Virus record (IMG/VR): IMGVR_UViG_3300024344_000001
Reading direction: 5' to 3' (one strand)
Length of the DNA: 64,000 bases
Origin: a virus
Lineage: Duplodnaviria > Heunggongvirae > Uroviricota > Caudoviricetes
The position numbers and the translations under genes were made by a program. Below are positions 29,882-42,090 of this stretch, one piece after another (position 1 is the first letter of the stretch; each line of letters begins with the position of its first letter). The notes beneath the pieces were generated by a model. The model worked only from the letters and a program-made list of their open reading frames with translations, did not search any database and was not told the origin of the DNA.

Positions 29882-29909
29882 ATTATACACCATTTACTCC
29901 GTTTGTCAA
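29882..29909 (-). promoter_or_regulatory. sigma70-like promoter (TTGACA-N16-TGTGTATAAT) upstream of a tRNA block
   Basis: rc: gttgacaa...gtgtataata. Confidence 0.55.
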
Positions 29910-30018
29910 CCAAAAAACGCATCTAATACGAAAGTTGATGCAAAAACAGCGATAATCACCCAAATCCACGCTTTACTTTCCTCACCCTCTTGGGCGGTTT
30001 TTCTGGGATAGTCTTGCA

Positions 30019-30684
30019 TTACTTAGTTGCCTTTTTACGATCTGAATCGCTGTAATCGATTTGCTCGTAAATCTCTACGGGTCCACGTTCAAATGTCTGG
30101 TTACGGAGACATTCTACACCGGAAGACATTGAGTTATACGCATGAGCAAGGTTTGAGTTTTTAGATACCGACAGTGAGGAACTCTTAGCGAATCCTCTGG
30201 CACCACCTTCTGTAACGGCGTTCTGGTTGGCACCAATAAAGGTAAACTTCCAGTTGTAGGTATTAGTCTGTAGATCAATCATTTCCTTGAGGCGTTCATT
30301 ACCTCTGTCATATCCTGGGAATTCCTTACTAGCATTCTCGCCGCCGTCAGTTACCACACAGAACATAACAAGTCCTGGGCGTTCTTCTTCTGGTAGTTCG
30401 GCCAGTCTCTGACCAGTCTTGTTGATAGCCATAGCAATGGCATCATTTAGGGCCGTCATACCCCTAGGTTCAAGAGTATACCCAGTTGTGTCCTTAATGT
30501 TTACGGCGTCATACACATAATTGAATTCATCATCAAACTCCAGTAGACTAATATTACATTCGCCCTTAGCCTGTTTTTGCTTGTTAAAGAATTCATCCAG
30601 GCCCTCTTGAGCCTGCTTCAGACCTCTATGCATACTTCCGCTGCGGTCAATAACCATCGTTAGGTCTGTAAGATCCTGTCTCAT
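30019..30684 (-). CDS. von Willebrand factor A (vWA) domain protein with MIDAS motif
   Basis: DRSGSM (DxSxS) MIDAS; start moved to the ATG at 30684, which has a GGAGG RBS. Confidence 0.65.
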   Translation of the reverse strand: MRQDLTDLTMVIDRSGSMHRGLKQAQEGLDEFFNKQKQAKGECNISLLEFDDEFNYVYDAVNIKDTTGYTLEPRGMTALNDAIAMAINKTGQRLAELPEEERPGLVMFCVVTDGGENASKEFPGYDRGNERLKEMIDLQTNTYNWKFTFIGANQNAVTEGGARGFAKSSSLSVSKNSNLAHAYNSMSSGVECLRNQTFERGPVEIYEQIDYSDSDRKKATK

Positions 30685-31106
30685 TTTTCCTCCATTTGGG
30701 AATCGGGGTTTTCCTCTTCTCTCATCTTTCTCATATGTTCCATCATTTCTTCGTGTTCTTCTTCTGTGGCCGCATTCAGGCCATCTTCTGGAATACACAT
30801 TAGTGATTGAGTAGGTACGTTATCATACTCCCACTCAAGGAACTCTTTTTTGATTTGCGGGTTCTGTTCTTCGAATTCGTGTCGTGATACAATCTTCTTA
30901 GGCTCCGTATACTTCACATAGTAGACGGCCTTATCTTTCCAATCAGGAAAGTCAATATCCCATTGCATACGAATACTCTTAGTATTCGAGTGCATAGCGA
31001 CATAGAAGTTTGGTTCTACAATACCAACGATCACCCCAAGATCTGACACTAAGGATCTTAGTGGGTAAATTGGGTCATCTTCGTAAGTCATTTTTTCTTC
31101 CATCAT
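30681..31106 (-). CDS. hypothetical acidic protein, translationally coupled to the vWA gene
   Basis: Stop overlaps the downstream ATG (ATGA). Confidence 0.45.
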   Translation of the reverse strand: MMEEKMTYEDDPIYPLRSLVSDLGVIVGIVEPNFYVAMHSNTKSIRMQWDIDFPDWKDKAVYYVKYTEPKKIVSRHEFEEQNPQIKKEFLEWEYDNVPTQSLMCIPEDGLNAATEEEHEEMMEHMRKMREEENPDSQMEEK

Positions 31107-31201
31107 TTCTTAGGTTTATGATCTGGTAAGTACCATATTAAATCTTCTTCGTTTGTATCAGTCCAATGCTGACGTTTGGATATCTGCATCCTTTGCAGAT
31201 T

Positions 31202-32782
31202 TTACTCATTGCTCTCAGTGACTTCCTTTACCTTTACTTTTTGCTTTTGCATTTGCTGTAGCATACCAGCCATTACCGCTGGGTCAAGGCTTGCACCTTC
31301 GCCCATAACAAGCACTTCTGGTCCTACACCTTCAAGTTCAGGTAGGTTGTTAATAAGGTTGTCAAGAATATAGAATCCGATACCGCCGTAGGCAGAAATC
31401 TTCTCTCTAACAGCTTCCGCTTCACCCTTAGCTCTACGGGCTTCAGCCTGACCCTCATTCTCTTCAGCTTCAATCTTGATCTTAGATTCTGTAAGGCGAG
31501 CCTGTTCCTTAGCGGCAGTACGGGCCTCAACAGTATCCTTCTCTACTTCCGCAGCAAGCTTCTGTTCCTCAAAAGCTTTAATCTGCTGTTTAGCAAGTTC
31601 CTGGTCAGTCTGAGTGGTAAGTAGTTCCTTACCTTCAGGTGTGCTATCAAGTCCAATATCAGCGATACGAACAGCGATAACATCTACCTTAAACTCAGCA
31701 ATAGCTTCACGTAGTTGTTCAGTAGCCTCAGTTTCTACTGTAGAACGAGAATTCAGGTAATCTAGGGCACTGGTATGTTCAGCGTTATTTCTGAAGATAC
31801 TTCGTACTGCGGGTAGAATTACCTTTGTTTCCAAAGTATCAAACCCATCCTTATCTAGATCTACGTCTGGTTCACCAATTTCTGATACAAGGTGAGGGGC
31901 ATTATCCTGCCTTACGGTTACCTCAACCCTAATATCAACGGGAAACTTATAACCATCGACGGTCTTAACTCCAATGGAGTGGTCAACTGTAGGGCGGTCA
32001 CTAGCACCCAACTGGGATGTACTGGTATAAGAGTAAACTCTCTTAGTAGTATTTACCTTAATCGGGTAGTAAGCCTCAGTATTGATATAATGAGTACCTG
32101 GGCCATACGGTGTATCCCAAATACCTACCTGACCAACTGGAACTAACTTACTAGTCGATACCGCTTCACCTTCGGCCTTAGTGCCGTGGTGAGACTGAAT
32201 AACCACACACTCATTCTGCTTGATAATAAGTGCTGGTTTTACCTCAACGGTGAATAGGTTAGGATTGTATGCGACAGTTTTACCAGCGGGAATAACTGTA
32301 ATCTGTGGACCTGCAAAACCTTTTGCTCCAAAGGTAGCACCATCCAACATGTCTTCTACAGAATCCCATTCATCAGCATAAGCCTGACCACTAAGTGCCT
32401 TACCGTCCTTAGCAGTTACCAATCCCATACTACCAGCAGGAATAGGCATGTTTGGGTTTTGTGATAGTTCATACTGCCACGGCCATAGACCAAAGTTCCA
32501 ACCTGGTCCCAATGTCGCAGCTTGCGGACCACGTTCGCCGTTAAAGGCTACTACGTGACCGCCTTGTAGTGGAGACCCAAACTTTGTTGAGACAATTCCA
32601 CGAGAGTCACCATCCACATAAAGGGCGGTCTGCCAACCGGTAAGTACGATAAACAAACCCGTAAACAAAAAGAGACCAAATCTACCAGGGCCAAGAATCT
32701 GTTTTGTAATGGGTACGAATGGTAGAACCAACGTAACCAATGCTAGAAACATAAAAGCCGCAAAAAACACTGTTGACATCAA
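31202..32782 (-). CDS. SPFH/band-7 (flotillin/prohibitin-like) membrane protein with coiled-coil tail
   Basis: N-terminal TM segments; SPFH core; long Ala/Glu/Lys/Gln-rich heptad C-terminus. Confidence 0.65.
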   Translation of the reverse strand: MMSTVFFAAFMFLALVTLVLPFVPITKQILGPGRFGLFLFTGLFIVLTGWQTALYVDGDSRGIVSTKFGSPLQGGHVVAFNGERGPQAATLGPGWNFGLWPWQYELSQNPNMPIPAGSMGLVTAKDGKALSGQAYADEWDSVEDMLDGATFGAKGFAGPQITVIPAGKTVAYNPNLFTVEVKPALIIKQNECVVIQSHHGTKAEGEAVSTSKLVPVGQVGIWDTPYGPGTHYINTEAYYPIKVNTTKRVYSYTSTSQLGASDRPTVDHSIGVKTVDGYKFPVDIRVEVTVRQDNAPHLVSEIGEPDVDLDKDGFDTLETKVILPAVRSIFRNNAEHTSALDYLNSRSTVETEATEQLREAIAEFKVDVIAVRIADIGLDSTPEGKELLTTQTDQELAKQQIKAFEEQKLAAEVEKDTVEARTAAKEQARLTESKIKIEAEENEGQAEARRAKGEAEAVREKISAYGGIGFYILDNLINNLPELEGVGPEVLVMGEGASLDPAVMAGMLQQMQKQKVKVKEVTESNE

Positions 32783-32838
32783 AATTTTCCTTTCAGTCTA
32801 TCCTAGTAAAAGTGGGACCGAACATCGGCCCCACCTAT

Positions 32839-33951
32839 TCAACCCTTAATGTTGATAATTGGTTTAACGTGATGGGTAACGTCTACCAATTCCTTCTGTT
32901 GTTCCATGACAGCAAAAATATCCTTGTAGGCGAACGGCGATTCGTCCAGGGTATCCTTATCTACCTTAGCACGAACACCCTCCATAGTCTTCTTGAAATC
33001 CTGAACATCTAATTCTCTCTTAGCGGCCTTACGTCCTAGGACGCGACCAGCACCGTGAGAAGAAGAGTGCATGGATTCTTCGTTCCCTTTACCTACTACT
33101 ATGAACGAACCGTCTCTCATGTTACCAGGAATTACGCCTTTCATCCCTTTTTCAGCATGAGTGGCACCCTTACGGTGAATCCAGCGGCCATCTTTCAATT
33201 CCGCATGATTATGATTACGGTTGATAAACGAATTCGAATCTGAAGACACACCTCCCAATCTACGGTCTAATACCGCTACTACAGCTTCAATCATAGCTGC
33301 ACGGTTAGCCAAGGCATAAGTAAGAGCATAGTTTAGGTCCACGATGTAATCCTGACCCAACTGTGAGTCTACATCAAGAGCACCATCTAGCCCCTCACCC
33401 TTAGCGATTTTCATATACTCACCCGCAATACCATGACCTAGGCCACGAGATCCTGAGTGAATAACGATCCAAATTTTATCATGCTCGTCATAGCCGATTT
33501 CAATGAAGTGGTTTCCACCACCCAATGTACCTAACTGTCTACGGGCATTACGGCGACCGTACATTTCTTCAGCAATCGCCGTATGTGGAAGTTTTTCGTC
33601 TACCCACACCTTGTCTTCCTTATGAGTATTAAAACCAACTGGAATATCACGGTAGATGTTCTGAAATAGGTAGTCGGCTCTTGCTTCAACGTCAGTTCTA
33701 TCGGCGTCTGTGCATATGCTGCTCATCCCGCAGCCTATATCGAAACCAACCCAAGCGGGGTATATTACCTCTCTTGTTGCGAATACTGAGCCAATAGGTG
33801 CATCATATCCAGTATGGGCGTCAGGCATCATAGCCCCTTGCTCAACAAATGGAGAATCCATACAATTATCAAACTGCTCCATAGCGGAGTCTTCAACAAC
33901 TTCTGCAAATATCTTTGATGGTTTCATTTCTCTCTTCTCCCTCTTATTCAC
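32839..33951 (-). CDS. rtcB: RtcB RNA 3'-phosphate/5'-OH ligase
   Basis: Motifs MPDAHTGYD, NRNHNHAE, HSSSHGAGR. Confidence 0.85.
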   Translation of the reverse strand: MNKREKREMKPSKIFAEVVEDSAMEQFDNCMDSPFVEQGAMMPDAHTGYDAPIGSVFATREVIYPAWVGFDIGCGMSSICTDADRTDVEARADYLFQNIYRDIPVGFNTHKEDKVWVDEKLPHTAIAEEMYGRRNARRQLGTLGGGNHFIEIGYDEHDKIWIVIHSGSRGLGHGIAGEYMKIAKGEGLDGALDVDSQLGQDYIVDLNYALTYALANRAAMIEAVVAVLDRRLGGVSSDSNSFINRNHNHAELKDGRWIHRKGATHAEKGMKGVIPGNMRDGSFIVVGKGNEESMHSSSHGAGRVLGRKAAKRELDVQDFKKTMEGVRAKVDKDTLDESPFAYKDIFAVMEQQKELVDVTHHVKPIINIKG

Positions 33952-33957
33952 GACATG

Positions 33958-34152
33958 TTACCATTCACTGTAATCAGTTACATCTTCTTCTTCTTTACTA
34001 ATATTACAGCGAATTACAGTTACCGTTCCTAGTGTAGTGGGCGTGTAAATCCACGAGAACTGTCCACCACTAGCACCAGTATATTCACGGCGATGTTTGT
34101 TCATAAATGCCGTAATTCTTTCTTGTTCTTTATCAGTTCTTGACGGTCTCAT
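33958..34152 (-). CDS. hypothetical small protein
   Basis: ORF. Confidence 0.3.
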   Translation of the reverse strand: MRPSRTDKEQERITAFMNKHRREYTGASGGQFSWIYTPTTLGTVTVIRCNISKEEEDVTDYSEW

Positions 34153-34448
34153 AGATTCCTCTCACCTTCCCAGTCGTAGATACAGTCGTCATCAATATCA
34201 ACCAATTTGATACCGTAATGATCGGCTGCGGCAATTACTTCTTGCCTCAACTCTGCAATTTCTTCCTTGTCTGATCCATCGTACCAAAATGTACGCCATT
34301 CACTTTCCCACAACTGAGTGCCGCACCTATCTTTTACTGTTGCATAGATAGCAACATAGTATGCACCACAGCATTCAGGACCACATGACCATACATCTAA
34401 ATAGAGACGCTCAGCCCATTCTGAGATTGGTTGGTATTCTTCAGTCAT
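34149..34448 (-). CDS. hypothetical protein
   Basis: ORF. Confidence 0.4.
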   Translation of the reverse strand: MTEEYQPISEWAERLYLDVWSCGPECCGAYYVAIYATVKDRCGTQLWESEWRTFWYDGSDKEEIAELRQEVIAAADHYGIKLVDIDDDCIYDWEGERNL

Positions 34449-34506
34449 TTTTCCTTATTTCCCATGTAAACTGCATATGTGCCGCTGGTTCCCACCCAAA
34501 TGGAAT

Positions 34507-34531
34507 TGGAGACGACGGGATTCGAACCCGT
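34507..34531 (-). pseudogene. tRNA 3'-fragment (acceptor 3' strand + T-arm) with no matching 5' half
   Basis: ggagacg + acggg-attcgaa-cccgt; no complementary 5' acceptor found within 150 nt. Confidence 0.3.
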
Positions 34532-34847
34532 GTGTTGATTAGCAATCATAATAACTTCTACGTGTGTAGGTATGTGCCACATACCAGAGGATAGTCTTCG
34601 CCAGGCGGGTCTATCATACCTTGTCCCTCATGGGCACGGCGATTAAGTCGCTACTCTCGTCTGTTATCCGATATATTCTACGATTGGGTAAAAAGGCTCG
34701 CAGAGAAGCCCGCAGCTTACGCTGCCATTAGTACAGATGTTTTTGCATCTATTGTTCGATCTATTTTTTAACTGGCCCTTAGATCAACCAGTACACGCGA
34801 TCATTACTCTCTACTATCAGTCGATTCCAAAACGTCCCCGTTATTTT

Positions 34848-35219
34848 CTAATGATCCAAATCTTTCACTACCGAAGGTAGTTCTTCTATCCTCTTAGCTT
34901 TATCATCTATTACCAAGTCAAAATGCGGTTTCTCGTCTCCACACTTAAGGTTATGGAACTTACAACCCCACTCACTTAGTTGTTTTAAGGTGTGAGTCTT
35001 GTAGTCTTTCCCACTCACTGACCCACGGGCAGTCCAGTATGTGATATGCCATCCCTCGTCATACAGCTTATTGATCTTAGCTATGTTATCGAAGTGAGGC
35101 TCAGACAGGTCATAACGGCGTTCGCCGCTGTAGAAGCAGATAGTCTCGTCAATATCTACGAAAGCCCGTTTCTGCTGACCTTCTGGGGTTAGTCTGTTGG
35201 CTATATGAAAGTCGGTCAT
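34848..35219 (-). CDS. HAD-superfamily phosphatase (DxDxT)
   Basis: Motif I VDIDETICF. Confidence 0.5.
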   Translation of the reverse strand: MTDFHIANRLTPEGQQKRAFVDIDETICFYSGERRYDLSEPHFDNIAKINKLYDEGWHITYWTARGSVSGKDYKTHTLKQLSEWGCKFHNLKCGDEKPHFDLVIDDKAKRIEELPSVVKDLDH

Positions 35220-35402
35220 TTACCGGCCTTCTTTCTATTACTAAGCCACTGACGAAGTCCCTTTTTAGATTCTACCATCATTTCCTCCAGCTTTCTACGT
35301 GTGATATCTACTATCTTCTGAGCGTATGGACCTAGTTCACATGGTTCATCATACACCATCAACGCTTTGTCTACGTTCATTGTAGCACCGTTTTACGAAA
35401 TG

Positions 35403-35744
35403 TCAAGGACAAATCCAGCCGATTGACAAAATAAACCGAGATCCTTCCAAAACGGTCGTTACGGAATGCTCTTGAACGTCTGGTCTAAACAGCTTTATAC
35501 GGGGCGTGTTGATAAGTGCGTTCAAGCATATAAACTCTCCACCCTTCTTACACTTACGCAGTACAATGTTCAGTCTAAAGTGTCTTCCTCTTGGAACTGT
35601 ATCAATGTGAGTATTGATATTAGATCCCTCTGGGAAACGTATTAGGTATACATCAAAGAAGAGAAGGCTACATAAGCATAATTTCTCATACCCAGTACCC
35701 AATCTACCTTTTACCCATTTGAACATTACTCTATCACATTTCAC
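35403..35744 (-). CDS. small 2OG-Fe(II) oxygenase-like protein
   Basis: HxD...H...R pattern: THIDTV ... EHSVTTVLEGSRFILS. Confidence 0.4.
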   Translation of the reverse strand: MKCDRVMFKWVKGRLGTGYEKLCLCSLLFFDVYLIRFPEGSNINTHIDTVPRGRHFRLNIVLRKCKKGGEFICLNALINTPRIKLFRPDVQEHSVTTVLEGSRFILSIGWICP

Positions 35745-35784
35745 TACACGTAAAAAAAACCCGCCCCAAAAGGACGGGCTAAGG

Positions 35785-35874
35785 GCAGCTAAACGAGAAT
35801 CGAACCCGCATAACCCCGTTAGGGGTCTCCTGATTCACAGTCAGGCCCAGCAAACCAATATCTGGCTTTAACTG
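35785..35874 (-). tRNA. tRNA, type-II-like; anticodon loop reads GUG
   Basis: Acceptor cagctaa/ttaactg; extra hairpin cccc-gtta-gggg; anticodon stem cctga/tcagg, loop codon CAC; D stem ccag/ctgg. Confidence 0.4.
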
Positions 35875-35914
35875 CATACTATATCCCATAAAATTGGGAA
35901 TTCAGTGAAATAAA

Positions 35915-35944
35915 TCGAACCTCAGTTACTAAATTGGTGTATAA
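35915..35944 (+). promoter_or_regulatory. plus-strand promoter-like element (extended -10 TGTGTATAAT) ahead of an HNH gene
   Basis: ggtgtataat at 35936-35944. Confidence 0.35.
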
Positions 35945-35964
35945 TATACCAACGGTTCATTAAA

Positions 35965-36035
35965 TGCGGCATGACTGAATCGAACAGACATTTTTTGTGT
36001 GGAAAACAAAAGTAATACCATTATACCAATGCCGC
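35965..36035 (-). tRNA. tRNA-Gly (UCC)
   Basis: Acceptor gcggcat/atgccgc perfect; T-arm gactg-aatcgaa-cagac; anticodon stem tttgt/acaaa, loop codon GGA. Confidence 0.55.
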
Positions 36036-36048
36036 AAAAGAGAGAATG

Positions 36049-36689
36049 TTATGAATACTAAAAGATGTAATCATTGTTTCGAAGAACTACCAGCGTCACA
36101 ATTTTACAAAAAGGGTAATGGGTTGTGGGCCTATTGTAAGTCGTGCGAATCTATTCGTAAAAAACAACAGCTTGTGAATTTCAAGAAACAGTGCTTAGGA
36201 TATAAACAACAGTTTTCTTGTACGAAATGCGGTTATGATCATAATATAGTCGCACTTGATTTTCACCACACGGACCCAACACAGAAAGATTTTAACATTT
36301 CTAAATGCAGAAACCTTGTTTTGAATGATAGAATCAAGGCAGAACTTGATAAGTGTGTAGTAATATGCTCTAATTGCCATAGAGAAGAACACTCGTTGGA
36401 GTGTGGATTGTTTACCCCTAAAATCCTAAAACCTAGATCGCCATCGTTATGTACTGAATGTGGATCAGAATGTTCTCATGGTGTACAGAGATGTAAATCT
36501 TGCTATATTAAAGAACAAAAGAAAAATATTCCTTCAAGAGAGGATCTGATATTGGATATCAAATCTCTCAAGTATGCCACTTCTATTGCTAATAAGTATA
36601 AAGTAACTGGGAACGCAGTGAAGAAATGGATGAAAGGATATAAGCTTTTTGATTTTTATAAATCTAACAAAAGTGCTAGATACCATTAG
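36049..36689 (+). CDS. HNH homing endonuclease with N-terminal zinc ribbons
   Basis: CNHCFE..CKSCE; CTKCG..LDFHHTDP..CSNCHREEH. Start moved to the internal ATG (MNTKRCNHC) because the annotated ATG at 35997 lies inside the antisense tRNA-Gly. Confidence 0.65.
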
Positions 36690-36701
36690 ATCACACTCAC
36701 G

Positions 36702-36905
36702 TTACTTCTTATTACAATACTCATAATAGATATCACAAGCATTTGCGAATTCAGTTCCACACCTGATATGATCAAACCAAGCACTGAACTTTTTAATTGG
36801 TCTAAAGTGTGAAGTTGATTTATATCTATTAAGAGAGTCTTCCCACATTTTACCTGCTAGGTTAACTCTTTCAGCAAATACTCGTTCTATATTCACTTTT
36901 TGCAT
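36702..36905 (-). CDS. hypothetical small protein
   Basis: ORF. Confidence 0.3.
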   Translation of the reverse strand: MQKVNIERVFAERVNLAGKMWEDSLNRYKSTSHFRPIKKFSAWFDHIRCGTEFANACDIYYEYCNKK

Positions 36906-36944
36906 ACTTTTTCGGTTTCCTACTGTTAGGCAACCCCTTTAGAT

Positions 36945-36985
36945 TGCCAAGCGGAAGCTGAAGGAATCGAAAATTGATTTTTATT
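36945..36985 (-). repeat. duplicated tRNA-Ser 3' fragment (acceptor + T-arm), near-identical to 49712-49745
   Basis: ccaagcggaag..ggaatcgaaa shared with the start of the tRNA-Ser(GGA) copy at 49712. Confidence 0.45.
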
Positions 36986-37010
36986 CCATTTCCGTATATA
37001 ATATATAGAG

Positions 37011-37093
37011 CAGAGGGTGGAATAATCGAAATCCGAACGAACTAACGCTCCCCGAGGGTTCAAACCTCGTTTGCCACCTTGACGGCACCCTCT
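37011..37093 (-). tRNA. tRNA-Ser (UGA), type II; paralog of the tRNA at 49717-49799
   Basis: Acceptor agagggt/accctct; anticodon stem cgagg/cctcg, loop codon TCA; aligns position-by-position with the 49717 copy. Confidence 0.5.
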
Positions 37094-37446
37094 GTATTAA
37101 CAATCATAAATAGGAGTACTCATATGAAAGTTAAGTGTTTAACTTGTGAGCAAAGTGTTGAAATACATCGTCATCTTTGTATTCAGTTTCGTTACCATGA
37201 TCGTCCATAGTTTTATCCTAATATATCGTAAAGAAAGTGACTCACCCTATCTACTACATACAGGGTGACTTTTCGGGGAATTATTAACCGGCCCCCAGTA
37301 GTGGATACTCCCAACAGGTTCAAGAATGTAAACAGGTTCGCCTCTTAAGCTCCCTATCACATTTATGCCCTAGGAGCGACCTAGTGCATTTCCCCGAAGG
37401 TTTCTGAGTCACATGATCTAAAATAGGTATTAGAACAACCCATTGA

Positions 37447-37533
37447 TCAGAGAGAAGGGAATCGAACCCTCATACAGTCTTACGACACTCCTGCTTCCAA
37501 GGCAGGCGGCATACCAATATTGCCCACTCTCTG
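37447..37533 (-). tRNA. tRNA with Pro (UGG) anticodon arm and ~18-nt extra segment between T and anticodon arms
   Basis: Acceptor cagagag/ctctctg perfect; D stem ggca/tgcc; anticodon stem cctgc/gcagg, loop codon CCA; extra acagtcttacgacact. Confidence 0.45.
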
Positions 37534-37536
37534 TGG

Positions 37537-37607
37537 TCAGGGTAGAAGGGATCAAACCTTCTCCTCTGGTATCCAAGACCAGAACGCTATCATTACGCCA
37601 TACCCTG
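37537..37607 (-). tRNA. tRNA-Pro (UGG)
   Basis: Acceptor cagggta/taccctg perfect; T-arm gaagg-gatcaaa-ccttc; loop codon CCA. Confidence 0.55.
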
Positions 37608-37611
37608 TTGG

Positions 37612-37681
37612 TCGCCCCTGAAGGAATTAAACCCCCGCCTCTTCCACCGAAGGAAGTGTGCTTACATTACACTATAGGGCG
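37612..37681 (-). tRNA. tRNA, isotype unresolved
   Basis: Acceptor cgcccct/tagggcg; T-loop aattaaa. Confidence 0.35.
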
Positions 37682-37942
37682 TTAGGAATTTAGTGCAAGC
37701 ACCTCATTCCGAATTTCTGTTTTTACCATTCTGATATTTTCTCGAAGAAATTGCTCAAGAGCTTCTTTCCTAGCCGCTACTCGAAGAAGCACTTCATATG
37801 TACTATCAGGCATTTCACCTTCGAGTTCTTCTATTCCGTCTATGATTTCCAGAACATCATATAAAGAAACCATATTACAACAATTTGTTGGAAGATCACC
37901 AGATCCACAAATGCATCCCTTTTGAACCATTATATCTCCCAC
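37682..37942 (-). CDS. hypothetical Cys-rich protein
   Basis: ORF. Confidence 0.35.
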   Translation of the reverse strand: MGDIMVQKGCICGSGDLPTNCCNMVSLYDVLEIIDGIEELEGEMPDSTYEVLLRVAARKEALEQFLRENIRMVKTEIRNEVLALNS

Positions 37943-38130
37943 CCTTCTCTATACCACAGGCGAAGGAAGAATTCTCCCTCACCAGTATGGTGAGTTTCCA
38001 CATTAACTGGAAGTAAGGGTCTTTCACCCTCATTGATGAACTTATTCATCTTCTCAACCAGTTGCTTCATGTTCTGACGATCCTTGTAACCGTCATCACG
38101 AACGAAGTCTTTGTATCCTACAGGTTTCAC
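37930..38130 (-). CDS. hypothetical protein
   Basis: ORF. Confidence 0.35.
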   Translation of the reverse strand: MKPVGYKDFVRDDGYKDRQNMKQLVEKMNKFINEGERPLLPVNVETHHTGEGEFFLRLWYREGWEI

Positions 38131-38147
38131 GTTGCGTTATCCTAAAG

Positions 38148-38218
38148 AGGTTCCACAGGGAATCGAACCCTGATCTCCTGATTACAAAACAGGAATAATA
38201 CCATTATACCACAGAACC
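38148..38218 (-). tRNA. tRNA-Thr (UGU), tentative
   Basis: T-arm caggg-aatcgaa-ccctg; loop codon ACA. Confidence 0.5.
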
Positions 38219-38222
38219 ATAA

Positions 38223-38426
38223 TTACCCGTTAGGGTTATAGTATTTCGGACTACCTTGAACTGCATAAGAGCAGACCGATCTACGTTTTTGATTGCCTTC
38301 CCAGACAATATCACATTGACTACAGTGGTGCTTGCATGAATGTGTCATACCATTATAGTCATTTCGTTTAGTTACGAACAATGTATCATTACACTTAGGG
38401 CAGATTGGTAATACTAAGTTGTTCAT
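38223..38426 (-). CDS. small Cys-rich (zinc-binding) protein
   Basis: CPKC..C..C..CSQC. Confidence 0.35.
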   Translation of the reverse strand: MNNLVLPICPKCNDTLFVTKRNDYNGMTHSCKHHCSQCDIVWEGNQKRRSVCSYAVQGSPKYYNPNG

Positions 38427-38746
38427 TTACTTGTTCCATCTGGATTGACTTCGGTGAATTCACCAATCGGATGACCGTATCCACCACACTCCAAACAGTC
38501 TTCTAGTCCCCTTGCATCATCACCCATAGGAACTAGCCCACTACCCTCACAAACATCACACCCTCGAATTCTAGTCATACTCGAACCCTCATAAGGATCT
38601 TCGTAAACTCTCAGCCAGACGTTCTTGAAGCCTGACTTGATATAGTGTATTGTAAAGGGGATTCATCCTCTGTCAAGACCCAATGTTCTTGTTTTTTCCA
38701 CCTCAGTGTCATTTCCGCCCCGTCACCACTGGCTATCGCCAGATTG

Positions 38747-38941
38747 CTAAAGATCCTCACCCATTGCCTGTTCCCAAGCATCATACAGTCTCTCTTCAAG
38801 ATCCTCTATTTTAGATTCCAGCTTATCAATCTTGGATTGTGCATGTTCATGCCTTACCCATTCACCTTCATCATCTGGTCTCGCAACGACACCAGCATGA
38901 GTATCCCAAAAAAGTGTATATCTTTTGTCTTCATAACTCAT
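38747..38941 (-). CDS. hypothetical acidic protein
   Basis: ORF. Confidence 0.35.
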   Translation of the reverse strand: MSYEDKRYTLFWDTHAGVVARPDDEGEWVRHEHAQSKIDKLESKIEDLEERLYDAWEQAMGEDL

Positions 38942-39183
38942 AATAGTGAGTATCTCCTAAGCAGTTTCCTCTTATCCCCATGCAGTGGCTGAGTAGCCAC
39001 CGCAGTGATCTCATCACTGAAGATATCATCCCGCCACACTACGAAATCAATTTCGTTATCGATCAGTTCCCTGATGACCTTTCGAAGTTTCGCCTCATTC
39101 TTTACCCGAAGGTAAACCAAAGATGGATGATTGTCCTCTTTGAATTTTCGTGCAGATTCTAATGCTGCATGACCGCCCTGCAC
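38938..39183 (-). CDS. Pth2-family peptidyl-tRNA hydrolase-like protein
   Basis: GGHAAL ~ Pth2 CSHAAL; VYLRVKNEAKL..VIREL..FVVWRDD ~ Pth2 VVLKV..EEL..ALIRDAG. Confidence 0.5.
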   Translation of the reverse strand: MQGGHAALESARKFKEDNHPSLVYLRVKNEAKLRKVIRELIDNEIDFVVWRDDIFSDEITAVATQPLHGDKRKLLRRYSLL

Positions 39184-39234
39184 AGCCTTCTGGGAGTCAG
39201 GGATATCATTCCGAACAAAGACATAGGTATGACC

Positions 39235-39669
39235 CTATGGATCGTTCAGTCTCTCACAAAATTTCTTTCCACGCCTGTTGACTTGTTTGTACTTGATCTT
39301 GAAGCTGGTTGATTCAATACCGCCGAACATTTCTGCATTCGCATGAAGTTCAGCTAGTGATGCAAGTAGTAGGGTTGAAAGTTGTTCGTTGGTCAGTGTT
39401 GACTCTTCAACATCTTTCGCTTTGCAGGTATGGAAGAACATATCGTTTCTGATAAGTTCACCAACCTCTTCACTACCACCATTCTCTAACCAGTAGTTCG
39501 CAGAAGCATTTACATGATCTGGATAATGGACTTTTTCTTCGTCATCATAGTATCTTACGAGGTGTTTACCGCAATCGTGATATACAGTATACTGCCTCAG
39601 TGTTTCAATGTCTGGTAAGTTTGAGACCAGTTGCGAGTGATACTCCAACAACCAATCCGGGATCTTCAT
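39235..39669 (-). CDS. HD-domain protein (putative phosphohydrolase)
   Basis: TVYHDCGKH ... HYPDH. Confidence 0.4.
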   Translation of the reverse strand: MKIPDWLLEYHSQLVSNLPDIETLRQYTVYHDCGKHLVRYYDDEEKVHYPDHVNASANYWLENGGSEEVGELIRNDMFFHTCKAKDVEESTLTNEQLSTLLLASLAELHANAEMFGGIESTSFKIKYKQVNRRGKKFCERLNDP

Positions 39670-39800
39670 CCCTTCCCAATCCCCACTTATGATTCTTTGC
39701 AGGTATTCCCAAACAAGTTCGCCGTGTTTCAGAAATTCGTCGTGAGTCTACAACATCAAAATTTTCCTTTGTAAAATTTCTCGAAAGTACTTAGTAACCA

Positions 39801-39873
39801 AGAAGACAATGGGACTCGAACCCATGACACACGAGGTTAGAACTCGCTGCTCTGCCAACTGAGCTATGTCTTC
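39801..39873 (-). tRNA. amber suppressor tRNA (anticodon CUA)
   Basis: Acceptor gaagaca/tgtcttc 7/7; T-arm atggg-actcgaa-cccat; D stem gctc/gagc; anticodon stem acgag/ctcgc; plus-strand loop gtTAGaa gives RNA loop UUCUAAC. Confidence 0.6.
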
Positions 39874-39892
39874 ATAACGGCGTTAGCCGAAG

Positions 39893-39968
39893 TAGCGACG
39901 GTGGGAGTCGAACCCACAAACAAATAGTTTTAAGCTATTCAGGTATACCGAGTTCCCGTCACGTCGCC
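39893..39968 (-). tRNA. tRNA, anticodon UAA (Leu-like) in a short-variable-arm scaffold
   Basis: T-arm gtggg-agtcgaa-cccac; anticodon stem aatag/ctatt, loop codon TTA. Confidence 0.45.
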
Positions 39969-40259
39969 ATATTTTTATCTAATTGAATAGTACATCCAAC
40001 TTCGGACGAAGTTTAGTATTCCATGTCCTAGAACACAAAAACCTAAAAAGTAGATAGAGTCTTCCATCATTCCACCATATTCTAAAATAGATTACCCTGA
40101 GAGTCTATCATTCCTTCATACCCACACCAATTACACTTTGCATGTACTGAACATCCGTCATCCCCAGTATATGTTCTTGTTCCATGCCATCCTATTTTAC
40201 ATATAATTCTCTTGAGAAGTTTGATCATGTATTGTTCTTTTTCGAGATCCTAGATTGAG

Positions 40260-40336
40260 TAGCGATAGTGGGGATCGAACCCACAAAACACCTATTTTTG
40301 AAACAGGTAGGTATGCCAAGTTCCACTCATATCGCC
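40260..40336 (-). tRNA. tRNA, anticodon CAA (Leu-like)
   Basis: T-arm gtggg-gatcgaa-cccac; anticodon stem cctat/acagg (wobble), loop codon TTG. Confidence 0.45.
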
Positions 40337-40339
40337 ATG

Positions 40340-40522
40340 CTATTCGTCATTCATAAACACTGGAGGCTTCCAACCTTTAGGGGCATTAGCCCAAGGTTCA
40401 CGATGCTTACTTGTAGCAGAGTTAACTCTACCACGCATTTCTCGGTTCTGTGAAGTGTGGTGTCTACCTTCTTCATGATTCTTACCACGAATTCTAAAAC
40501 CACAACTTGTATACCTAGCCAT
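40340..40522 (-). CDS. hypothetical basic protein
   Basis: ORF. Confidence 0.3.
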   Translation of the reverse strand: MARYTSCGFRIRGKNHEEGRHHTSQNREMRGRVNSATSKHREPWANAPKGWKPPVFMNDE

Positions 40523-40722
40523 TATTCTTCCTTTTTAACCCACTTAGAAACACTTGTCATTTCACTTGGAACACGCTCAACTACTTTCTTGTAACCAAGC
40601 TCGTGCATCTTTTGAATATGCTGTCTATTTGTCGCTTCAGAATAGCAACAACCACCAATCACCGTAGATGAAAAAACTAGAACAGCAGTTCCAAATACGC
40701 AAAACCATGAACCTTCAGTCAT
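40522..40722 (-). CDS. small membrane protein
   Basis: TM segment WFCVFGTAVLVFSSTVIGG. Confidence 0.35.
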   Translation of the reverse strand: MTEGSWFCVFGTAVLVFSSTVIGGCCYSEATNRQHIQKMHELGYKKVVERVPSEMTSVSKWVKKEE

Positions 40723-40757
40723 TTTACTATCCTTTTCCTAGTTGTCAAGCCTTAAAG

Positions 40758-40830
40758 TGGAACTATCTGGAGTTGAACCAGACCCCGCAGGACTTCAATC
40801 TTCTGTGCGTACCTCCTACACCATAGTTCC
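40758..40830 (-). tRNA. tRNA, isotype unresolved
   Basis: Acceptor ggaacta/tagttcc perfect; T-arm tctgg-agttgaa-ccaga. Confidence 0.5.
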
Positions 40831-40858
40831 AGTATTTTCGCGGTTTTAGTGTATAATA
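40830..40858 (+). promoter_or_regulatory. plus-strand promoter-like element (TGTATAAT) ahead of an HNH gene
   Basis: agtgtataat at 40850-40858; RBS ggag before the ATG at 40898. Confidence 0.35.
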
Positions 40859-40897
40859 TAATGAACTTCGAATCATTTCATCAACACGGAGACTACT

Positions 40898-41581
40898 ATG
40901 TCAAAAACCGCTATTTTGTGTGACTTTTGCAGCAAAACCTTTGAAAAAAGGAATGTTGATATTTCCAGAACAGTCAGTCACTTTTGTTCTAAAGAATGTT
41001 TTAAGAAGGGAAAACGTAAACGGATCATTACTAAGTGTGATTACTGTAGTAAAGATGTTGAAAAAGTACCGTCAGAGATTTCCGATCATAATTTTTGTAA
41101 TAAATCTTGTTCTGCCTCTTATAATAATTCAGTATCCCCTAAGAGGGAGAAAGGGGTTCATTATGAAAATGATAATAATGGAAATACATATAAGGTAAAA
41201 AGACGAGAAAAGAAATGTATGACTTGTATGCGATCTATGAGTCATAAACATAAGAAATTTTGCTCTCATTCCTGTTATAGTCAAGATAGGCGAAATAAGG
41301 CATTAGCACAAATTAAATCTTCTGGACTACTTACCAATAATAATACACATAGATGTTCACCTTCTATGAAGTCTTGTCTAGCCGAACTAAATGGCTCAAA
41401 CTGTTCTATCTGTAACCAAGAACCATTTTGGAATGGTAAACCAATGATAATGATTTTAGATCATATCAATGGTATTTCGAACGACTGGCGTTTAGAAAAC
41501 GTGAGACTTGTTTGTCCTAACTGTGATACACAGCTTGATACCTTTAAGTCCCGTAATAAAAACGGTAATCGTCCAAGATAA
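40898..41581 (+). CDS. HNH-family homing endonuclease with multiple zinc ribbons
   Basis: Repeated CxxC..C..C modules; C-terminal CSICN...DHINGISND..CPNCD. Confidence 0.6.
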   Translation: MSKTAILCDFCSKTFEKRNVDISRTVSHFCSKECFKKGKRKRIITKCDYCSKDVEKVPSEISDHNFCNKSCSASYNNSVSPKREKGVHYENDNNGNTYKVKRREKKCMTCMRSMSHKHKKFCSHSCYSQDRRNKALAQIKSSGLLTNNNTHRCSPSMKSCLAELNGSNCSICNQEPFWNGKPMIMILDHINGISNDWRLENVRLVCPNCDTQLDTFKSRNKNGNRPR

Positions 41582-41582
41582 G

Positions 41583-41655
41583 CACCACCTACGAGATTCG
41601 AACTCGCAACGACTACTTCGACAGAGTAGTATCCCTCCCAGGGGGTCCAGATGGT
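41583..41655 (-). tRNA. tRNA-Asp (GUC)
   Basis: T-arm acgag-attcgaa-ctcgc; anticodon stem ctact/agtag, loop codon GAC. Confidence 0.55.
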
Positions 41656-41905
41656 ATGTTGTATGTACGAAAGTGGGTAGGATTACCAGTATAAGCTATT
41701 ACGCCCCTTGCAGCAGGGTTAATATACTGACCTACATCATCCGATTAGTCAGATCGAATGGAAGAGTGACTAATTCTTCTTCTGCCCCTAAACACTTCGA
41801 TAGGTCTTACTAATTGCCTGTCTTACGCACCAAGACTAACTAACTGCTTGACACTTGTATAAAGGAACAGTGCTCTTTTCAGCCACCACTTTGTAATAAG
41901 CACCC

Positions 41906-41990
41906 CAGGGAGGATTCGAACCTCCACCCCCCGACTAAGGGGAGACTCTTAGTTAACAGCTAAGTACAATACCATTCTGTCACCGAGGTA
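41906..41990 (-). tRNA. tRNA-like, unresolved
   Basis: T-arm ggagg-attcgaa-cctcc; no clean acceptor pairing found. Confidence 0.3.
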
Positions 41991-42090
41991 TATCCCAGTT
42001 CTTTATGCGACTTCTGGAAAAGTCGTAGCACACCACCGAGGTTACGATCCCCGTTCTTCTGGTTTGGAATCAGATGTTCTTCCGATTGAA

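What the first reader, a model, noticed from the sequence alone, without database searches (positions are those of the whole stretch)
32839..39183. tRNA/translation repair and rescue toolkit: RtcB ligase, HAD phosphatase, Pth2-like hydrolase, and further away an ArfB-like GGQ factor
RtcB (HNHAE, SSHGAGR motifs) is embedded in the tRNA island next to a DxDxT phosphatase. A Pth2-like peptidyl-tRNA hydrolase lies at 38938-39183, and an ArfB/YaeJ-like GGQ protein sits at 61781-62152 with its own consensus promoter. Together these could counter host anticodon nucleases (PrrC/RloC/colicin-type) and translation-arrest defences by re-ligating cleaved tRNAs and releasing stalled ribosomes.
Basis: partly seen in the sequence, partly recalled or inferred. 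Interest (0 to 1): 0.65.

Follow-up and report, generated by a model that had tools for sequence, protein, structure and literature searches.

The report
Suppressor tRNA gates phage hydrolase gene
Beside ordinary RNA-repair and ribosome-rescue genes, this large phage has a gene for a tRNA-end-cleaning enzyme that carries stop codons in its reading frame and lies next to the phage's own stop-codon-reading tRNA; the same pairing recurs in about a hundred other phages and I found no description of it in the literature I could search.

Summary
The listed genes exist, but two are mislabelled. RtcB (32839-33951) is solid, with all catalytic residues aligned. The DxDxT protein is a small HAD of unknown substrate. 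The "ArfB-like" protein is an isolated RF1/RF2-type GGQ domain without an ArfB tail. A tmRNA (34504-34839) was missed.

The 81-aa "Pth2" ORF is the C-terminal domain of a 272-codon gene (39756 to 38938, minus strand): SD, ATG TTG TAG, an HD phosphohydrolase domain, a second TAG, then a Pth2-fold domain. It starts about 45 nt downstream of a canonical tRNA(CUA).

About 100 non-redundant relatives, including cultured phages such as CBB, GAP32, BF, ME3, XacN1, RsoM2USA and Arash, show the same design. A 1-4 codon leader ends in TAG, usually with no start codon after it. A tRNA(CUA) lies on the same strand in 55 loci. All three TGA-leader lineages carry tRNA(UCA) instead.

TAG still terminates 19% of the window's genes, so the genome is not recoded. 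I conclude that this tRNA-3'-end enzyme module is the dedicated client of the suppressor tRNAs of standard-code phages. Read-through itself, the inserted amino acid and the physiological purpose remain untested. The anti-nuclease "toolkit" reading is plausible but unproven.

The parts
28632..53193 (-). tRNA island: 29 tRNA genes plus one tmRNA, all on the minus strand, interspersed with small ORFs and homing-endonuclease-like genes
   Evidence: ARAGORN; Rfam tRNA and tmRNA matches
32839..33951 (-). RtcB RNA ligase (370 aa)
   Evidence: PF01139 299 bits; phrog_1075 388 bits; catalytic residues aligned with PDB 1uc2 and 2epg; 54% identical to Salmonella phage Arash gp120c
34504..34839 (-). tmRNA, tag peptide AKTSVLMAA
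   Evidence: ARAGORN; Rfam RF00023 76 bits against a gathering score of 47
34848..35219 (-). small HAD-type phosphatase (DIDET motif), substrate unknown
   Evidence: Motif read in the translation; phrog_1238 E=1e-22, phrog_415 E=1.6e-6; Pfam HAD_PNKP only E=0.083
39801..39873 (-). amber suppressor tRNA, anticodon CUA; canonical cloverleaf, U73 discriminator, no encoded CCA
   Evidence: ARAGORN; best-scoring tRNA of the window in Rfam, 65.2 bits
39748..39770 (-). translation start of the gated gene: Shine-Dalgarno AAAGGA (39770-39765), ATG (39756-39754), TTG, and in-frame TAG no. 1 (39750-39748) followed by A
   Evidence: Sequence read; translation; identical in two independent assemblies
39238..39747 (-). 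HD phosphohydrolase domain (170 codons). It is most like the HD/body domain of class II tRNA nucleotidyltransferases. The first canonical start codon after TAG no. 1 is 27 codons in, beyond the invariant His8-Gly9.
39235..39237 (-). in-frame TAG no. 2 between the two domains. Relatives have sense codons here (fused ORF). It lies in a small hairpin at 39239-39222.
38938..39234 (-). Pth2-fold hydrolase domain (98 codons) plus the TGA stop.
61781..62152 (-). stand-alone GGQ (RF-1) domain protein, 123 aa, derived from class I release factors; not ArfB-type
   Evidence: PF00472 85 bits; RF1 model 97.5 bits, PrfH 72, ArfB 29.6; PDB RF1 2fvo residues 195-314; family of 115-140 aa homologues in metagenomes
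62351..62378 (-). sigma-70-like promoter match TTGACA-16-TG-TACAAT upstream of the GGQ gene
   Evidence: It is a consensus match only; 1 site found against 1.2 expected in shuffles.

Best explanation
The window is the early and tRNA-island region of a roughly 180-kb virulent phage. It encodes an RtcB ligase, a tmRNA, a small HAD phosphatase and an isolated release-factor GGQ domain.

The item called 'Pth2-like' is one 272-codon gene (39756 to 38938, minus strand) for a two-domain enzyme aimed at tRNA 3' ends. The N-terminal domain is an HD phosphohydrolase of the kind found in CCA-adding enzymes. The C-terminal domain is a Pth2-fold ester hydrolase. The reading frame contains two UAG codons, at codon 3 and between the domains. 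The gene begins about 45 nt downstream of a tRNA with anticodon CUA.

Shown: the gene anatomy, the conservation of the leader stop, the covariation between stop codon and anticodon, and the two folds.

Inferred: the protein is made only when the phage's own suppressor tRNA decodes the leader stop, so the stop codon acts as a translational gate. Termination at the second UAG would give an HD-only product and read-through the HD-Pth2 fusion.

More speculative: the gate couples the dose or timing of a tRNA-end hydrolase to the activity of the suppressor and of the phage tRNA set. One option is to recycle the peptidyl-tRNAs and non-stop products that read-through creates, together with the phage tmRNA and GGQ protein. 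Another is to feed back on the suppressor itself.
For: Anatomy of the gene:
- Searches give the sequence and translation.
- Both TAGs are identical in two independent assemblies, ENA ERZ27251151 and SRR6056610, with 0 mismatches over 943 nt.

Homology across the stops:
- tblastn of the frame after TAG no. 2 aligns from residue 2-4.
- In RAS14, XacN1, P0081, P0058 and P0114 the two domains form one uninterrupted ORF.
- The 26 codons between TAG no. 1 and the first ATG are conserved. They contain the invariant His-Gly and helix 1, modelled at pLDDT about 98.

Conservation of the gate:
- Among 36 non-redundant Pth2-type genes, 34 have a TAG leader and 2 a TGA leader. The leader is 2-3 codons long in 29, and the next base is a purine in all 36.
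- Among 66 non-redundant HD-type genes, 53 have a TAG leader and 1 a TGA leader.
- In the same loci TAG is the upstream in-frame stop in 26% of ORFs, and the leader pattern occurs in at most 1.7% of ORFs.

Link to the suppressor tRNA:
- A cognate tRNA lies on the same strand in 27 of 36 and 28 of 53 fetched loci, often 40-60 nt upstream.
- All three TGA-leader lineages (L033, L037, L130) carry tRNA(UCA) and no tRNA(CUA), although their sister loci use TAG with CUA. Hypergeometric P is about 1e-4.

Extra in-frame TAGs occur only in this module:
- L008 and L056 have internal TAGs.
- The HD gene of CBB, GAP32 and BF has a conserved TAG at codon 47.
- RsoM2USA has a TAG leader on both genes.

No genome-wide recoding:
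- Stop-codon use in the window is TAA 52, TGA 30, TAG 19.
- No other gated gene was found in the 64 kb.

Literature: the XacN1 paper says targets of its suppressor tRNAs could not be identified; the RsoM2USA paper names no specific target; the abstract of the Summit genome announcement says possible targets were not identified.
Against: - No experiment shows read-through, and the inserted amino acid is unknown. An apparent Gln in database proteins turned out to be an artefact of code-15 translation.
- In 9 of 36 and 24 of 53 loci no suppressor tRNA lies within the fetched flanks. XacN1 and RsoM2USA are known to have one elsewhere in the genome.
- One locus (L056) has TAG codons but only a tRNA(UCA) nearby.
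- Twelve HD genes have no leader stop, and some of them still lie near a tRNA(CUA).
- In many HD-only genes a Met follows 5-13 codons after the TAG, so initiation there is possible.
- The residue aligned with what I recall as the catalytic Lys of archaeal Pth2 is Gln in this family, so the chemistry or the substrate may differ.
- The loci are phylogenetically related, so the counts overstate the number of independent events.
- The physiological purpose of the gate is inference only.
Confidence: 0.7

Rival explanations
1. RtcB, the HAD phosphatase, the Pth2-like hydrolase and the GGQ protein form one counter-defence toolkit. It re-ligates tRNAs cut by anticodon nucleases and frees ribosomes arrested by host defences. 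The amber codons are incidental.
For: RtcB is catalytically intact and sits in the tRNA island. A tmRNA, a GGQ protein and a Pth2-fold domain are all present. Established knowledge supports the idea in general: T4 Pnkp/Rnl1 reverse PrrC damage, and RtcB seals 2',3'-cyclic-P to 5'-OH breaks. The RtcB homologue of phage Arash was detected in virions (PMC10585845).
Against: The genes are dispersed over 29 kb with no operon structure. RtcB needs no phosphatase. The HAD protein has no significant RNA-repair family match. The GGQ protein is not ArfB-like. The model does not explain the conserved leader stop or its covariation with the suppressor anticodon. Phage Arash has RtcB and the gated module but gave no tblastn match to the GGQ protein.
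Confidence: 0.3
2. The ATG-x-TAG leader is a mini upstream ORF. The ribosome terminates there and re-initiates just downstream (translational coupling) without any suppression. The nearby suppressor tRNA is coincidental, because the gene lies in a tRNA island.
For: The codon after the stop is sometimes ATT, ATA, ATC, GTT or ATG, which can act as weak starts. Many HD-only genes have a Met 5-13 codons after the TAG.
Against: In most Pth2-type genes the following codons are AAT, AAC, ACT or ACC, with no near-cognate start before conserved residues. Internal TAGs in the window, L008, L056 and the CBB-group HD gene cannot be bypassed by re-initiation without losing conserved domain parts. The model gives no reason why the stop should be TAG in 87 of 90 leaders. 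It also does not explain why it switches to TGA exactly where the tRNA is UCA.
Confidence: 0.07
3. The phage as a whole uses an alternative genetic code in which TAG is a sense codon (code 15), as crAss-like and Lak phages do. The gene is just one of many recoded genes.
For: A tRNA(CUA) is present. The protein database itself translated several of these contigs with TAG as Gln.
Against: TAG ends 19 of 101 ORFs in the window, often with a back-up stop 0-25 codons later. No other ORF in the 64 kb has a leader-type or homology-spanning in-frame TAG. For XacN1, in-silico read-through of 18 amber stops found nothing (PMC5852040).
Confidence: 0.03
4. The gene is a decaying pseudogene, or the in-frame stops are sequencing errors.
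For: Annotators of CBB, BF, Arash and others left the gene uncalled or truncated.
Against: The sequence is identical in independent assemblies. About 90 lineages keep the stop while the flanking codons change. Both domains keep invariant catalytic-type residues and give an AlphaFold model with pLDDT 96.
Confidence: 0.02

Closest known systems
Stop-codon recoding in phages with suppressor tRNAs (code 15 and code 4; crAss-like, Lak and jumbo phages; Borges et al., bioRxiv 10.1101/2021.08.26.457843)
   Same: A phage-encoded tRNA(CUA) or tRNA(UCA) decodes in-frame stop codons in phage genes. A regulatory use of recoding has been proposed.
   Different: Here the genome keeps the standard code and TAG still terminates about 19% of genes. 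Only one enzyme module carries the in-frame stops, and the stop sits at codon 2-5 as a gate. In the recoded phages the stops are scattered through structural and lysis genes. That paper contains no occurrence of the word 'hydrolase'.
prfB (RF2) autoregulation through an in-frame UGA early in its own mRNA
   Same: A translation-termination-related gene carries a conserved early in-frame stop. The fate of that stop, termination versus recoding, sets the gene's output.
   Different: prfB uses a +1 frameshift and senses its own product. Here recoding is by a dedicated suppressor tRNA, and feedback by the product is only a hypothesis.
Programmed read-through that yields two products (Q-beta A1 protein, MuLV gag-pol)
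   Same: TAG no. 2 of the window would give an HD-only product or an HD-Pth2 fusion, depending on read-through.
   Different: Those cases rely on host near-cognate tRNAs and RNA context. Here the phage supplies a cognate suppressor tRNA.
Archaeal and eukaryotic peptidyl-tRNA hydrolase Pth2 (PF01981; PDB 1wn2, 2zv3)
   Different: Identity is only about 21% and the Pfam score is at threshold. The GKGK loop is shortened, and the position I recall as the catalytic Lys is Gln. The domain is always fused or adjacent to an HD domain.
HD domain of class II CCA-adding enzymes (E. coli Cca: 2',3'-cyclic phosphodiesterase, 2'-nucleotidase and phosphatase activities, from memory)
   Different: There is no nucleotidyltransferase head domain. 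Sequence-level HD and HDIG scores are below threshold. The activity is untested.
ArfB (YaeJ) and the PrfH-RtcB2 ribosome rescue and repair pair
   Same: The window's GGQ protein shares the catalytic GGQ domain. RtcB is present in the same genome.
   Different: ArfB model 29.6 bits against a cutoff of 100, with no basic C-terminal tail. PrfH model 72 bits against a cutoff of 167, and the N-terminal half is missing. The GGQ gene and rtcB are 28 kb apart.
Synthetic suppressor-tRNA gates (for example PMC7969014, a suppressor-tRNA feed-forward loop)
   Same: An amber codon near the start of a gene makes its expression depend on a co-expressed suppressor tRNA.
   Different: Those circuits are engineered. 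This would be a natural, widely conserved counterpart.

Membership tests
RtcB RNA ligase (PF01139) | Full-length profile match above the curated cutoff | tested here: met
   299 bits against a cutoff of 27, profile positions 1-426
RtcB RNA ligase (PF01139) | Metal ligands (Asp, Cys, 3 His) and the guanylylated His in the HGAGR motif | tested here: met
   GFDIGCG, GGGNHF, HSGSRGLGH, HNHAE and SSSHGAGR align with the corresponding P. horikoshii motifs. The residue roles are from memory.
RtcB RNA ligase (PF01139) | Ligation of 3'-P or 2',3'-cyclic-P ends to 5'-OH RNA ends | not testable with these tools
   Needs an enzyme assay
Pth2 peptidyl-tRNA hydrolase (PF01981) | Profile match above the gathering score | tested here: met
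   25.7 bits against a cutoff of 23 once the full domain is used, so marginal. NCBIfam Pth2 equivalog models are far below cutoff on the XacN1 homologue, the only relative on which they scored (19 against 126); they gave no hit on the window's protein.
Pth2 peptidyl-tRNA hydrolase (PF01981) | Pth2 fold | tested here: met
Pth2 peptidyl-tRNA hydrolase (PF01981) | Catalytic Lys in the GKGK loop and Asp in the DAG motif (S. solfataricus K18 and D86, recalled from memory) | tested here: inconclusive
   The Lys position aligns with a conserved Gln. The Asp position is mostly Asp (EPD or RDD) but Ser in ME3. I could not confirm the residue roles in the papers available to me.
Pth2 peptidyl-tRNA hydrolase (PF01981) | Hydrolysis of peptidyl-tRNA | not testable with these tools
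   Needs an enzyme assay
ArfB (YaeJ) ribosome rescue factor | GGQ catalytic domain | tested here: met
   GPGGQHINK motif; PF00472 85 bits
ArfB (YaeJ) ribosome rescue factor | Match to the ArfB equivalog model, including the C-terminal basic tail that probes the empty mRNA channel | tested here: not met
   NF006718 scores 29.6 bits against a cutoff of 100 and matches residues 2-28 only. The C-terminus aligns with RF1/RF2 residues instead.
Class I release factor RF1/RF2 | Codon-reading domains 2/4 (PxT or SPF motif) in addition to GGQ domain 3 | tested here: not met
   Only RF1 positions 212-332 of 347 are matched. The ORF has a stop 11 codons upstream of its start.
PrfH-RtcB2 pair | A PrfH-type factor adjacent to rtcB | tested here: not met
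   PrfH model 72 bits against a cutoff of 167, C-terminal half only. The genes are 28 kb apart.
HAD phosphatase superfamily | DxDxT nucleophile motif and downstream Thr/Ser, Lys and DD motifs | tested here: inconclusive
   DIDET, WTAR and VIDDK can be read in the translation. Curated models are below threshold (HAD_PNKP 13.5 bits against 27.6). The protein belongs to phage family phrog_1238, E=1e-22.
HD phosphohydrolase superfamily | H...HD...H...D metal-binding motif on the HD fold | tested here: met
Genome-wide stop-codon reassignment (code 15) | TAG no longer used as a terminator; in-frame TAG in many genes | tested here: not met
   19 of 101 ORFs end in TAG. Only one gene has homology-spanning in-frame TAGs.
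Suppressor-dependent (gated) gene | A conserved in-frame stop with no alternative start, and a cognate suppressor tRNA whose anticodon covaries with the stop | tested here: met
   87 TAG and 3 TGA leaders; 55 TAG-leader loci hold a CUA tRNA; all 3 TGA-leader loci hold a UCA tRNA; one non-cognate case (L056).
Suppressor-dependent (gated) gene | Demonstrated read-through in vivo | not testable with these tools
   Needs proteomics or a reporter assay
tmRNA (RF00023) | Covariance-model match above the gathering score, with a tag reading frame | tested here: met
   76.1 bits against 47; tag AKTSVLMAA*

The most novel reading that the evidence does not exclude
The suppressor tRNA and the stop-gated HD/Pth2 module together form a natural translational sensor-effector circuit. 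The leader stop measures how much functional phage suppressor tRNA is present, and by proxy how well the phage's own tRNA set is expressed, processed and charged. Only then does it release an enzyme that rewrites tRNA 3' ends. The circuit could act as negative feedback that holds read-through at a set level, analogous to prfB. It could also act as a checkpoint before the phage strips or resets the host tRNA pool. Either way it would explain why standard-code, tRNA-rich phages carry suppressor tRNAs at all.
Probability: 0.3. Interest if true: 0.9.

Novelty: new variant of a known kind. Interest (0 to 1): 0.78.

Why it matters
Suppressor tRNAs are repeatedly annotated in phages that use the standard code, and their targets are reported as unknown. 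Examples are XacN1, RsoM2USA and, from its abstract, Summit. This analysis supplies a conserved and specific client gene for them.

It also explains why that gene is missing or truncated in the GenBank annotation of CBB, BF and Arash, and apparently of many of their relatives.

The question becomes directly testable in cultured systems on Salmonella, Cronobacter, Pectobacterium, Serratia, Yersinia, Acinetobacter and Xanthomonas.

If read-through is confirmed, it would be a natural example of single-gene control by a dedicated suppressor tRNA. That design was so far familiar to me mainly from synthetic biology. It may also be an evolutionary stepping stone towards full stop-codon reassignment.

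In addition, it defines a new two-domain enzyme family (HD plus Pth2 fold) that probably acts on tRNA 3' ends.

Tried and rejected
1. Megablast of 32839-39700 against phage records found no match. The phage is known only from metagenomes; the HD ORF is 100% identical on contigs of up to 179,771 bp.
2. A blastn search with the tRNA(CUA) returned only generic tRNA similarity.
3. Scanning IMG/VR with the 8-sequence alignment failed for lack of a conserved stretch. Scanning with the single window protein found no relatives. Narrower alignments worked.
4. 'TAG is decoded as Gln because homologues have Q there' is retracted. The contigs behind P0001 and P0045 have TAG, and the database had translated it as Q.
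5. Inferring the identity of the suppressor from its closest paralogous tRNA was inconclusive. The closest was Gln in L009 and L020 and Trp for the UCA tRNA of L033, but other types elsewhere.
6. Pyrrolysine is rejected. The 'Pyl' label from ARAGORN only reflects the anticodon, and the tRNA is fully canonical.
7. A search for other gated or read-through genes in the window found none with an SD and no nearby start. The four or five same-frame ORF pairs across a TAG are what chance predicts, and each has a start 0-4 codons after the TAG.
8. PrfH-RtcB2-type pairing of the GGQ protein with RtcB is rejected on model scores and on distance.
9. No SmpB, CCA-adding enzyme or aminoacyl-tRNA synthetase appeared among the roughly 50 ORFs scanned with Pfam. 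Not every small ORF was scanned.
10. Literature searches (9 used) found no paper that links a phage suppressor tRNA to a Pth2 or HD gene. The library excludes most subscription journals.

Full report
**Setting**

All long ORFs of the window lie on the minus strand. The left part encodes replication and nucleotide-metabolism proteins: a Pol III alpha-like protein, primase, DnaB, a RecA-like protein, PhoH, ribonucleotide reductase, a C5-methylase and dCMP deaminase. From 28.6 to 53.2 kb there is an island of 29 tRNA genes and one tmRNA.

No cultured phage is similar at the DNA level. The HD ORF recurs 100% identical on metagenomic contigs of up to 179,771 bp. The nearest cultured relative by RtcB (54% identity) is the 181-kb Salmonella phage Arash.

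**Checking the four listed genes**

RtcB (32839-33951) is unambiguous. It scores 299 bits on PF01139 and 388 bits on phrog_1075. Its motifs GFDIGCG, GGGNHF, HSGSRGLGH, HNHAE and SSSHGAGR align with the metal-binding and guanylylation motifs of P. horikoshii RtcB.

The DxDxT protein (34848-35219) is a real small HAD-like protein. It belongs to a phage family (phrog_1238, E=1e-22). Its similarity to the phosphatase domain of polynucleotide kinase is weak (phrog_415 E=1.6e-6; Pfam HAD_PNKP E=0.083). RtcB chemistry needs no phosphatase, so the two are not evident partners.

The 'ArfB-like' protein (61781-62152) has a genuine RF-1/GGQ domain (85 bits). It aligns with the C-terminal half of RF1/RF2 (NCBIfam 97 bits; PDB 2fvo residues 195-314). 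The ArfB model scores only 29.6 bits and covers the GGQ loop alone. The PrfH model scores 72 bits, below its cutoff. The protein is therefore an isolated release-factor domain 3. It has neither codon-reading domains nor an ArfB tail. About twenty stand-alone homologues of 115-140 aa and 43-52% identity exist in metagenomes.

**The Pth2-like ORF is mis-delimited**

The 81-aa ORF matches the Pfam PTH2 model only from profile position 21. Its frame stays open upstream, without any ATG, GTG or TTG, up to a TAG at 39237-39235. That TAG ends an HD-like ORF in the same frame. tblastn with the extended frame aligns from residue 2-4 with jumbo-phage sequences. In Stenotrophomonas phage RAS14, in Xanthomonas phage XacN1 and in the closest metagenomic relatives (68%, 58% and 55% identity), the HD and Pth2 parts form one uninterrupted ORF.

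The HD part also continues upstream of its annotated ATG, through 26 conserved codons, to AAAGGA-N8-ATG TTG TAG (39770-39748). The first canonical start after this TAG is 27 codons downstream. Starting there would delete an invariant His-Gly and the first helix.

The gene is thus 272 codons long, with UAG at codon 3 and again between the two domains. Its start codon lies 44 nt (its SD about 30 nt) downstream of a tRNA with anticodon CUA (39873-39801). That tRNA is the best-scoring canonical tRNA of the window (65 bits). The whole 943-nt segment is identical in two independent assemblies, so the stops are not sequencing errors.

**Comparative evidence**

The same design appears in every cultured relative I examined:

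| Phage | Gene | Leader |
|---|---|---|
| Acinetobacter ME3 | Pth2-like | ATG ACT TAG |
| Pectobacterium CBB, Cronobacter GAP32 | Pth2-like | ATG GCA CAA TAG |
| Serratia BF | Pth2-like | ATG ACG CAC TAG |
| Ralstonia RsoM2USA | Pth2-like | ATG TTG TAG |
| Ralstonia RsoM2USA | HD | ATG AAA TCG TAG |
| XacN1 and RAS14 | HD-Pth2 fusion | ATG AAG TAG |
| Salmonella Arash | Pth2-like | ATG CTG TAG |

In the GenBank records examined the gene is either not annotated or truncated.

Two IMG/VR scans added 32 and 80 loci. After removing duplicates the counts are as follows.

- Pth2-type genes (36): 34 have a TAG leader and 2 a TGA leader. The leader is 2-3 codons long in 29. The base after the stop is a purine in all 36 (A in 31). 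From memory (Bossi 1983; Miller and Albertini 1983), this is the context most favourable for nonsense suppression in E. coli.
- HD-type genes (66): 53 have a TAG leader, 1 a TGA leader and 12 no leader.
- Background in the same loci: TAG is the upstream in-frame stop in 26% of ORFs, and the leader pattern occurs in at most 1.7% of ORFs.

A cognate suppressor tRNA, always on the same strand, lies within the fetched flanks in 27 of 36 and 28 of 53 loci. It is often 40-60 nt upstream of the gene. XacN1 and RsoM2USA are reported to carry theirs elsewhere in the genome.

The most telling result is covariation. The three lineages whose leader stop is TGA (L033, L037, L130) carry tRNA(UCA) and no tRNA(CUA), while their sister loci use TAG with CUA. 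Under a simple hypergeometric model P is about 1e-4. One locus is an exception: L056 has two in-frame TAGs but only a tRNA(UCA) within 10 kb.

Additional in-frame TAGs occur inside this module and nowhere else that I could find. Examples are the window's TAG no. 2, internal TAGs in L008 and L056, and a conserved TAG at codon 47 of the HD gene in CBB, GAP32 and BF.

The two domains are always together. They are fused as HD-Pth2, fused in reverse order as Pth2-HD, split by a TAG, or encoded as adjacent genes.

**Not a recoded genome**

In the window TAG terminates 19 of 101 ORFs, often with a back-up stop shortly after. No other ORF has a leader-type TAG with an SD and no nearby start. The XacN1 authors read through 18 amber stops in silico and found no extension with homology. 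They could not have found this target, because the stop lies at the beginning of the gene and not at its end.

**What the protein is**

An AlphaFold model of a full-length homologue (54% identical in the HD part) has pLDDT 96.4.

The HD metal-ligand pattern (H8, H57-D58, H74, H78, D102, H106, H135) and a basic S-x-S-F-K-x-K-x-K strip are invariant across the family, including the window's protein. In the Pth2-like domain R8, Q19, H22, E26, T77 and R89 are conserved. The position I recall as the catalytic Lys of archaeal Pth2 is Gln, so the substrate or the chemistry may differ.

Both folds belong to enzymes that work on the 3' end of tRNA. From memory, the HD domain of E. coli Cca has 2',3'-cyclic phosphodiesterase and phosphatase activities, and Pth2 cleaves the ester bond at A76. 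The inference is a bifunctional enzyme that unblocks tRNA 3' ends.

**How it most likely works**

Shown:
- the anatomy of the gene;
- the conservation of the leader stop;
- the covariation between stop codon and anticodon;
- the fold assignments.

Inferred, with good support:
- Synthesis of the protein requires decoding of the leader stop by the phage's suppressor tRNA, so the stop acts as a translational gate.
- In the window, the second UAG would additionally split the output into an HD-only product and an HD-Pth2 fusion.

Inferred, weakly: the reason for the gate. I see three readings.
- Feed-forward compensation. Suppressor tRNAs are known to drive ribosomes to mRNA 3' ends and to raise the load on tmRNA (Ueda et al. 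2002, from memory). Tying a peptidyl-tRNA-type hydrolase to suppressor activity would match the demand, and the phage also brings a tmRNA and a GGQ protein.
- Negative feedback. The enzyme deacylates or otherwise disables the suppressor and so holds read-through at a set point, by analogy with prfB.
- A checkpoint or timer. The enzyme is made only after the phage tRNA set is functional.

I cannot discriminate among these with sequence data.

**Rivals**

Termination followed by re-initiation after a mini-ORF fails on three counts:
- the non-start codons that follow most leaders;
- the internal TAGs;
- the anticodon covariation.

Genome-wide recoding, pseudogenisation and sequencing error are each contradicted by the data cited above.

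The RtcB homologue of Arash, gp120, was reported in virion proteomics (PMC10585845). The idea is untested, however, and does not account for the gate.

**Prior knowledge**

Nine full-text searches found no paper that connects phage suppressor tRNAs with a Pth2 or HD gene. The XacN1 paper says targets of its suppressor tRNAs could not be identified, and the abstract of the Summit genome announcement says possible targets were not identified. The RsoM2USA paper names no specific target and only suggests there are several potential ones. The searchable library omits most subscription journals, so a prior description cannot be fully excluded.

**Verdict**

The real feature is a conserved gene module for a tRNA-end enzyme, gated by a suppressor tRNA. 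It is a new variant of phage stop-codon recoding. It is directly testable in several cultured phages.

Noticed in passing
window 35783-35874, 41900-41989, 46801-46891, 37447-37533 (all minus strand): Four tRNAs have long, type-II-like variable arms but carry anticodons of families that normally have short arms: His GUG (92 nt), Asn GUU (90 nt), Ile UAU (91 nt) and Pro UGG (87 nt). No tRNA-Tyr or tRNA-Cys was found in the window. These may be Ser/Leu/Tyr-type bodies with changed anticodons, or nuclease-evading variants.
   Followed up: partly
window 39222-39239 (minus strand): A 6-bp hairpin (CATAGG-GTCATA-CCTATG) contains the inter-domain TAG and is followed by a T-rich stretch. It could modulate read-through or termination at TAG no. 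2.
   Followed up: no
L004 3444, L012 10462, L005 1944 (CBB, GAP32, BF): In the CBB group the HD gene follows the Pth2-like gene. It starts with a normal ATG but has a conserved internal TAG at codon 47 (GAC ACT GGA TAG GGC). GenBank splits it into two or three 'hypothetical proteins'.
   Followed up: partly
L070, L076, L096, L107, L125: Fusions in the reverse order (Pth2-like domain first, HD second, about 300 aa) that still have a TAG leader (M-K-N-T-TAG or M-T-TAG).
   Followed up: partly
L056 9959 and 10079: An HD gene with two in-frame TAGs in a locus whose only detectable suppressor within 10 kb is a tRNA(UCA). This is the single non-cognate case. The gene ends in TGA TAG.
   Followed up: partly
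L043 5307-5381 (Salmonella phage Arash, record 49176-49247): The tRNA annotated in GenBank as tRNA-Phe has anticodon CUA according to ARAGORN, so it is an unrecognised amber suppressor. The adjacent 'peptidyl-tRNA hydrolase' CDS is truncated to 50 aa.
   Followed up: yes
window 53785-55245 (minus strand): A 486-aa protein with a GmrSD N-terminal (DUF262-type) domain plus an HNH nuclease domain, inside the tRNA island. It resembles modification-dependent restriction enzymes.
   Followed up: no
window 59558-60289 and 60252-61001 (minus strand): Two adjacent calcineurin-like metallophosphoesterase paralogues just downstream of the GGQ gene region. Both end in TAG with an immediate back-up stop.
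   Followed up: no
window 35997-36689 and 40898-41581 (plus strand): Two Cys-rich zinc-finger/HNH-like ORFs on the opposite strand, inserted between tRNA genes. They are probably homing endonucleases. One overlaps tRNA-Gly 35964-36036.
   Followed up: no
window 2192-3856 and 13326-14096 (minus strand): A Pol III alpha-like protein of only 554 aa (PHP plus NTPase domains), possibly a split polymerase, and a LAGLIDADG homing endonuclease in the replication module.
   Followed up: no
window 35403-35744 (minus strand): A 113-aa ORF between the HAD gene and tRNA-His with a weak 2OG-Fe(II) oxygenase match (E=0.0097). It belongs to phage family phrog_13746 (E=2e-34), function unknown.
   Followed up: no
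protein database used by the search for homologous proteins (P0001, P0045, P0130): Some database proteins were predicted with TAG translated as Gln, so they show a 'Q' where the contig has TAG. This can mislead inference about the decoded amino acid.
   Followed up: yes
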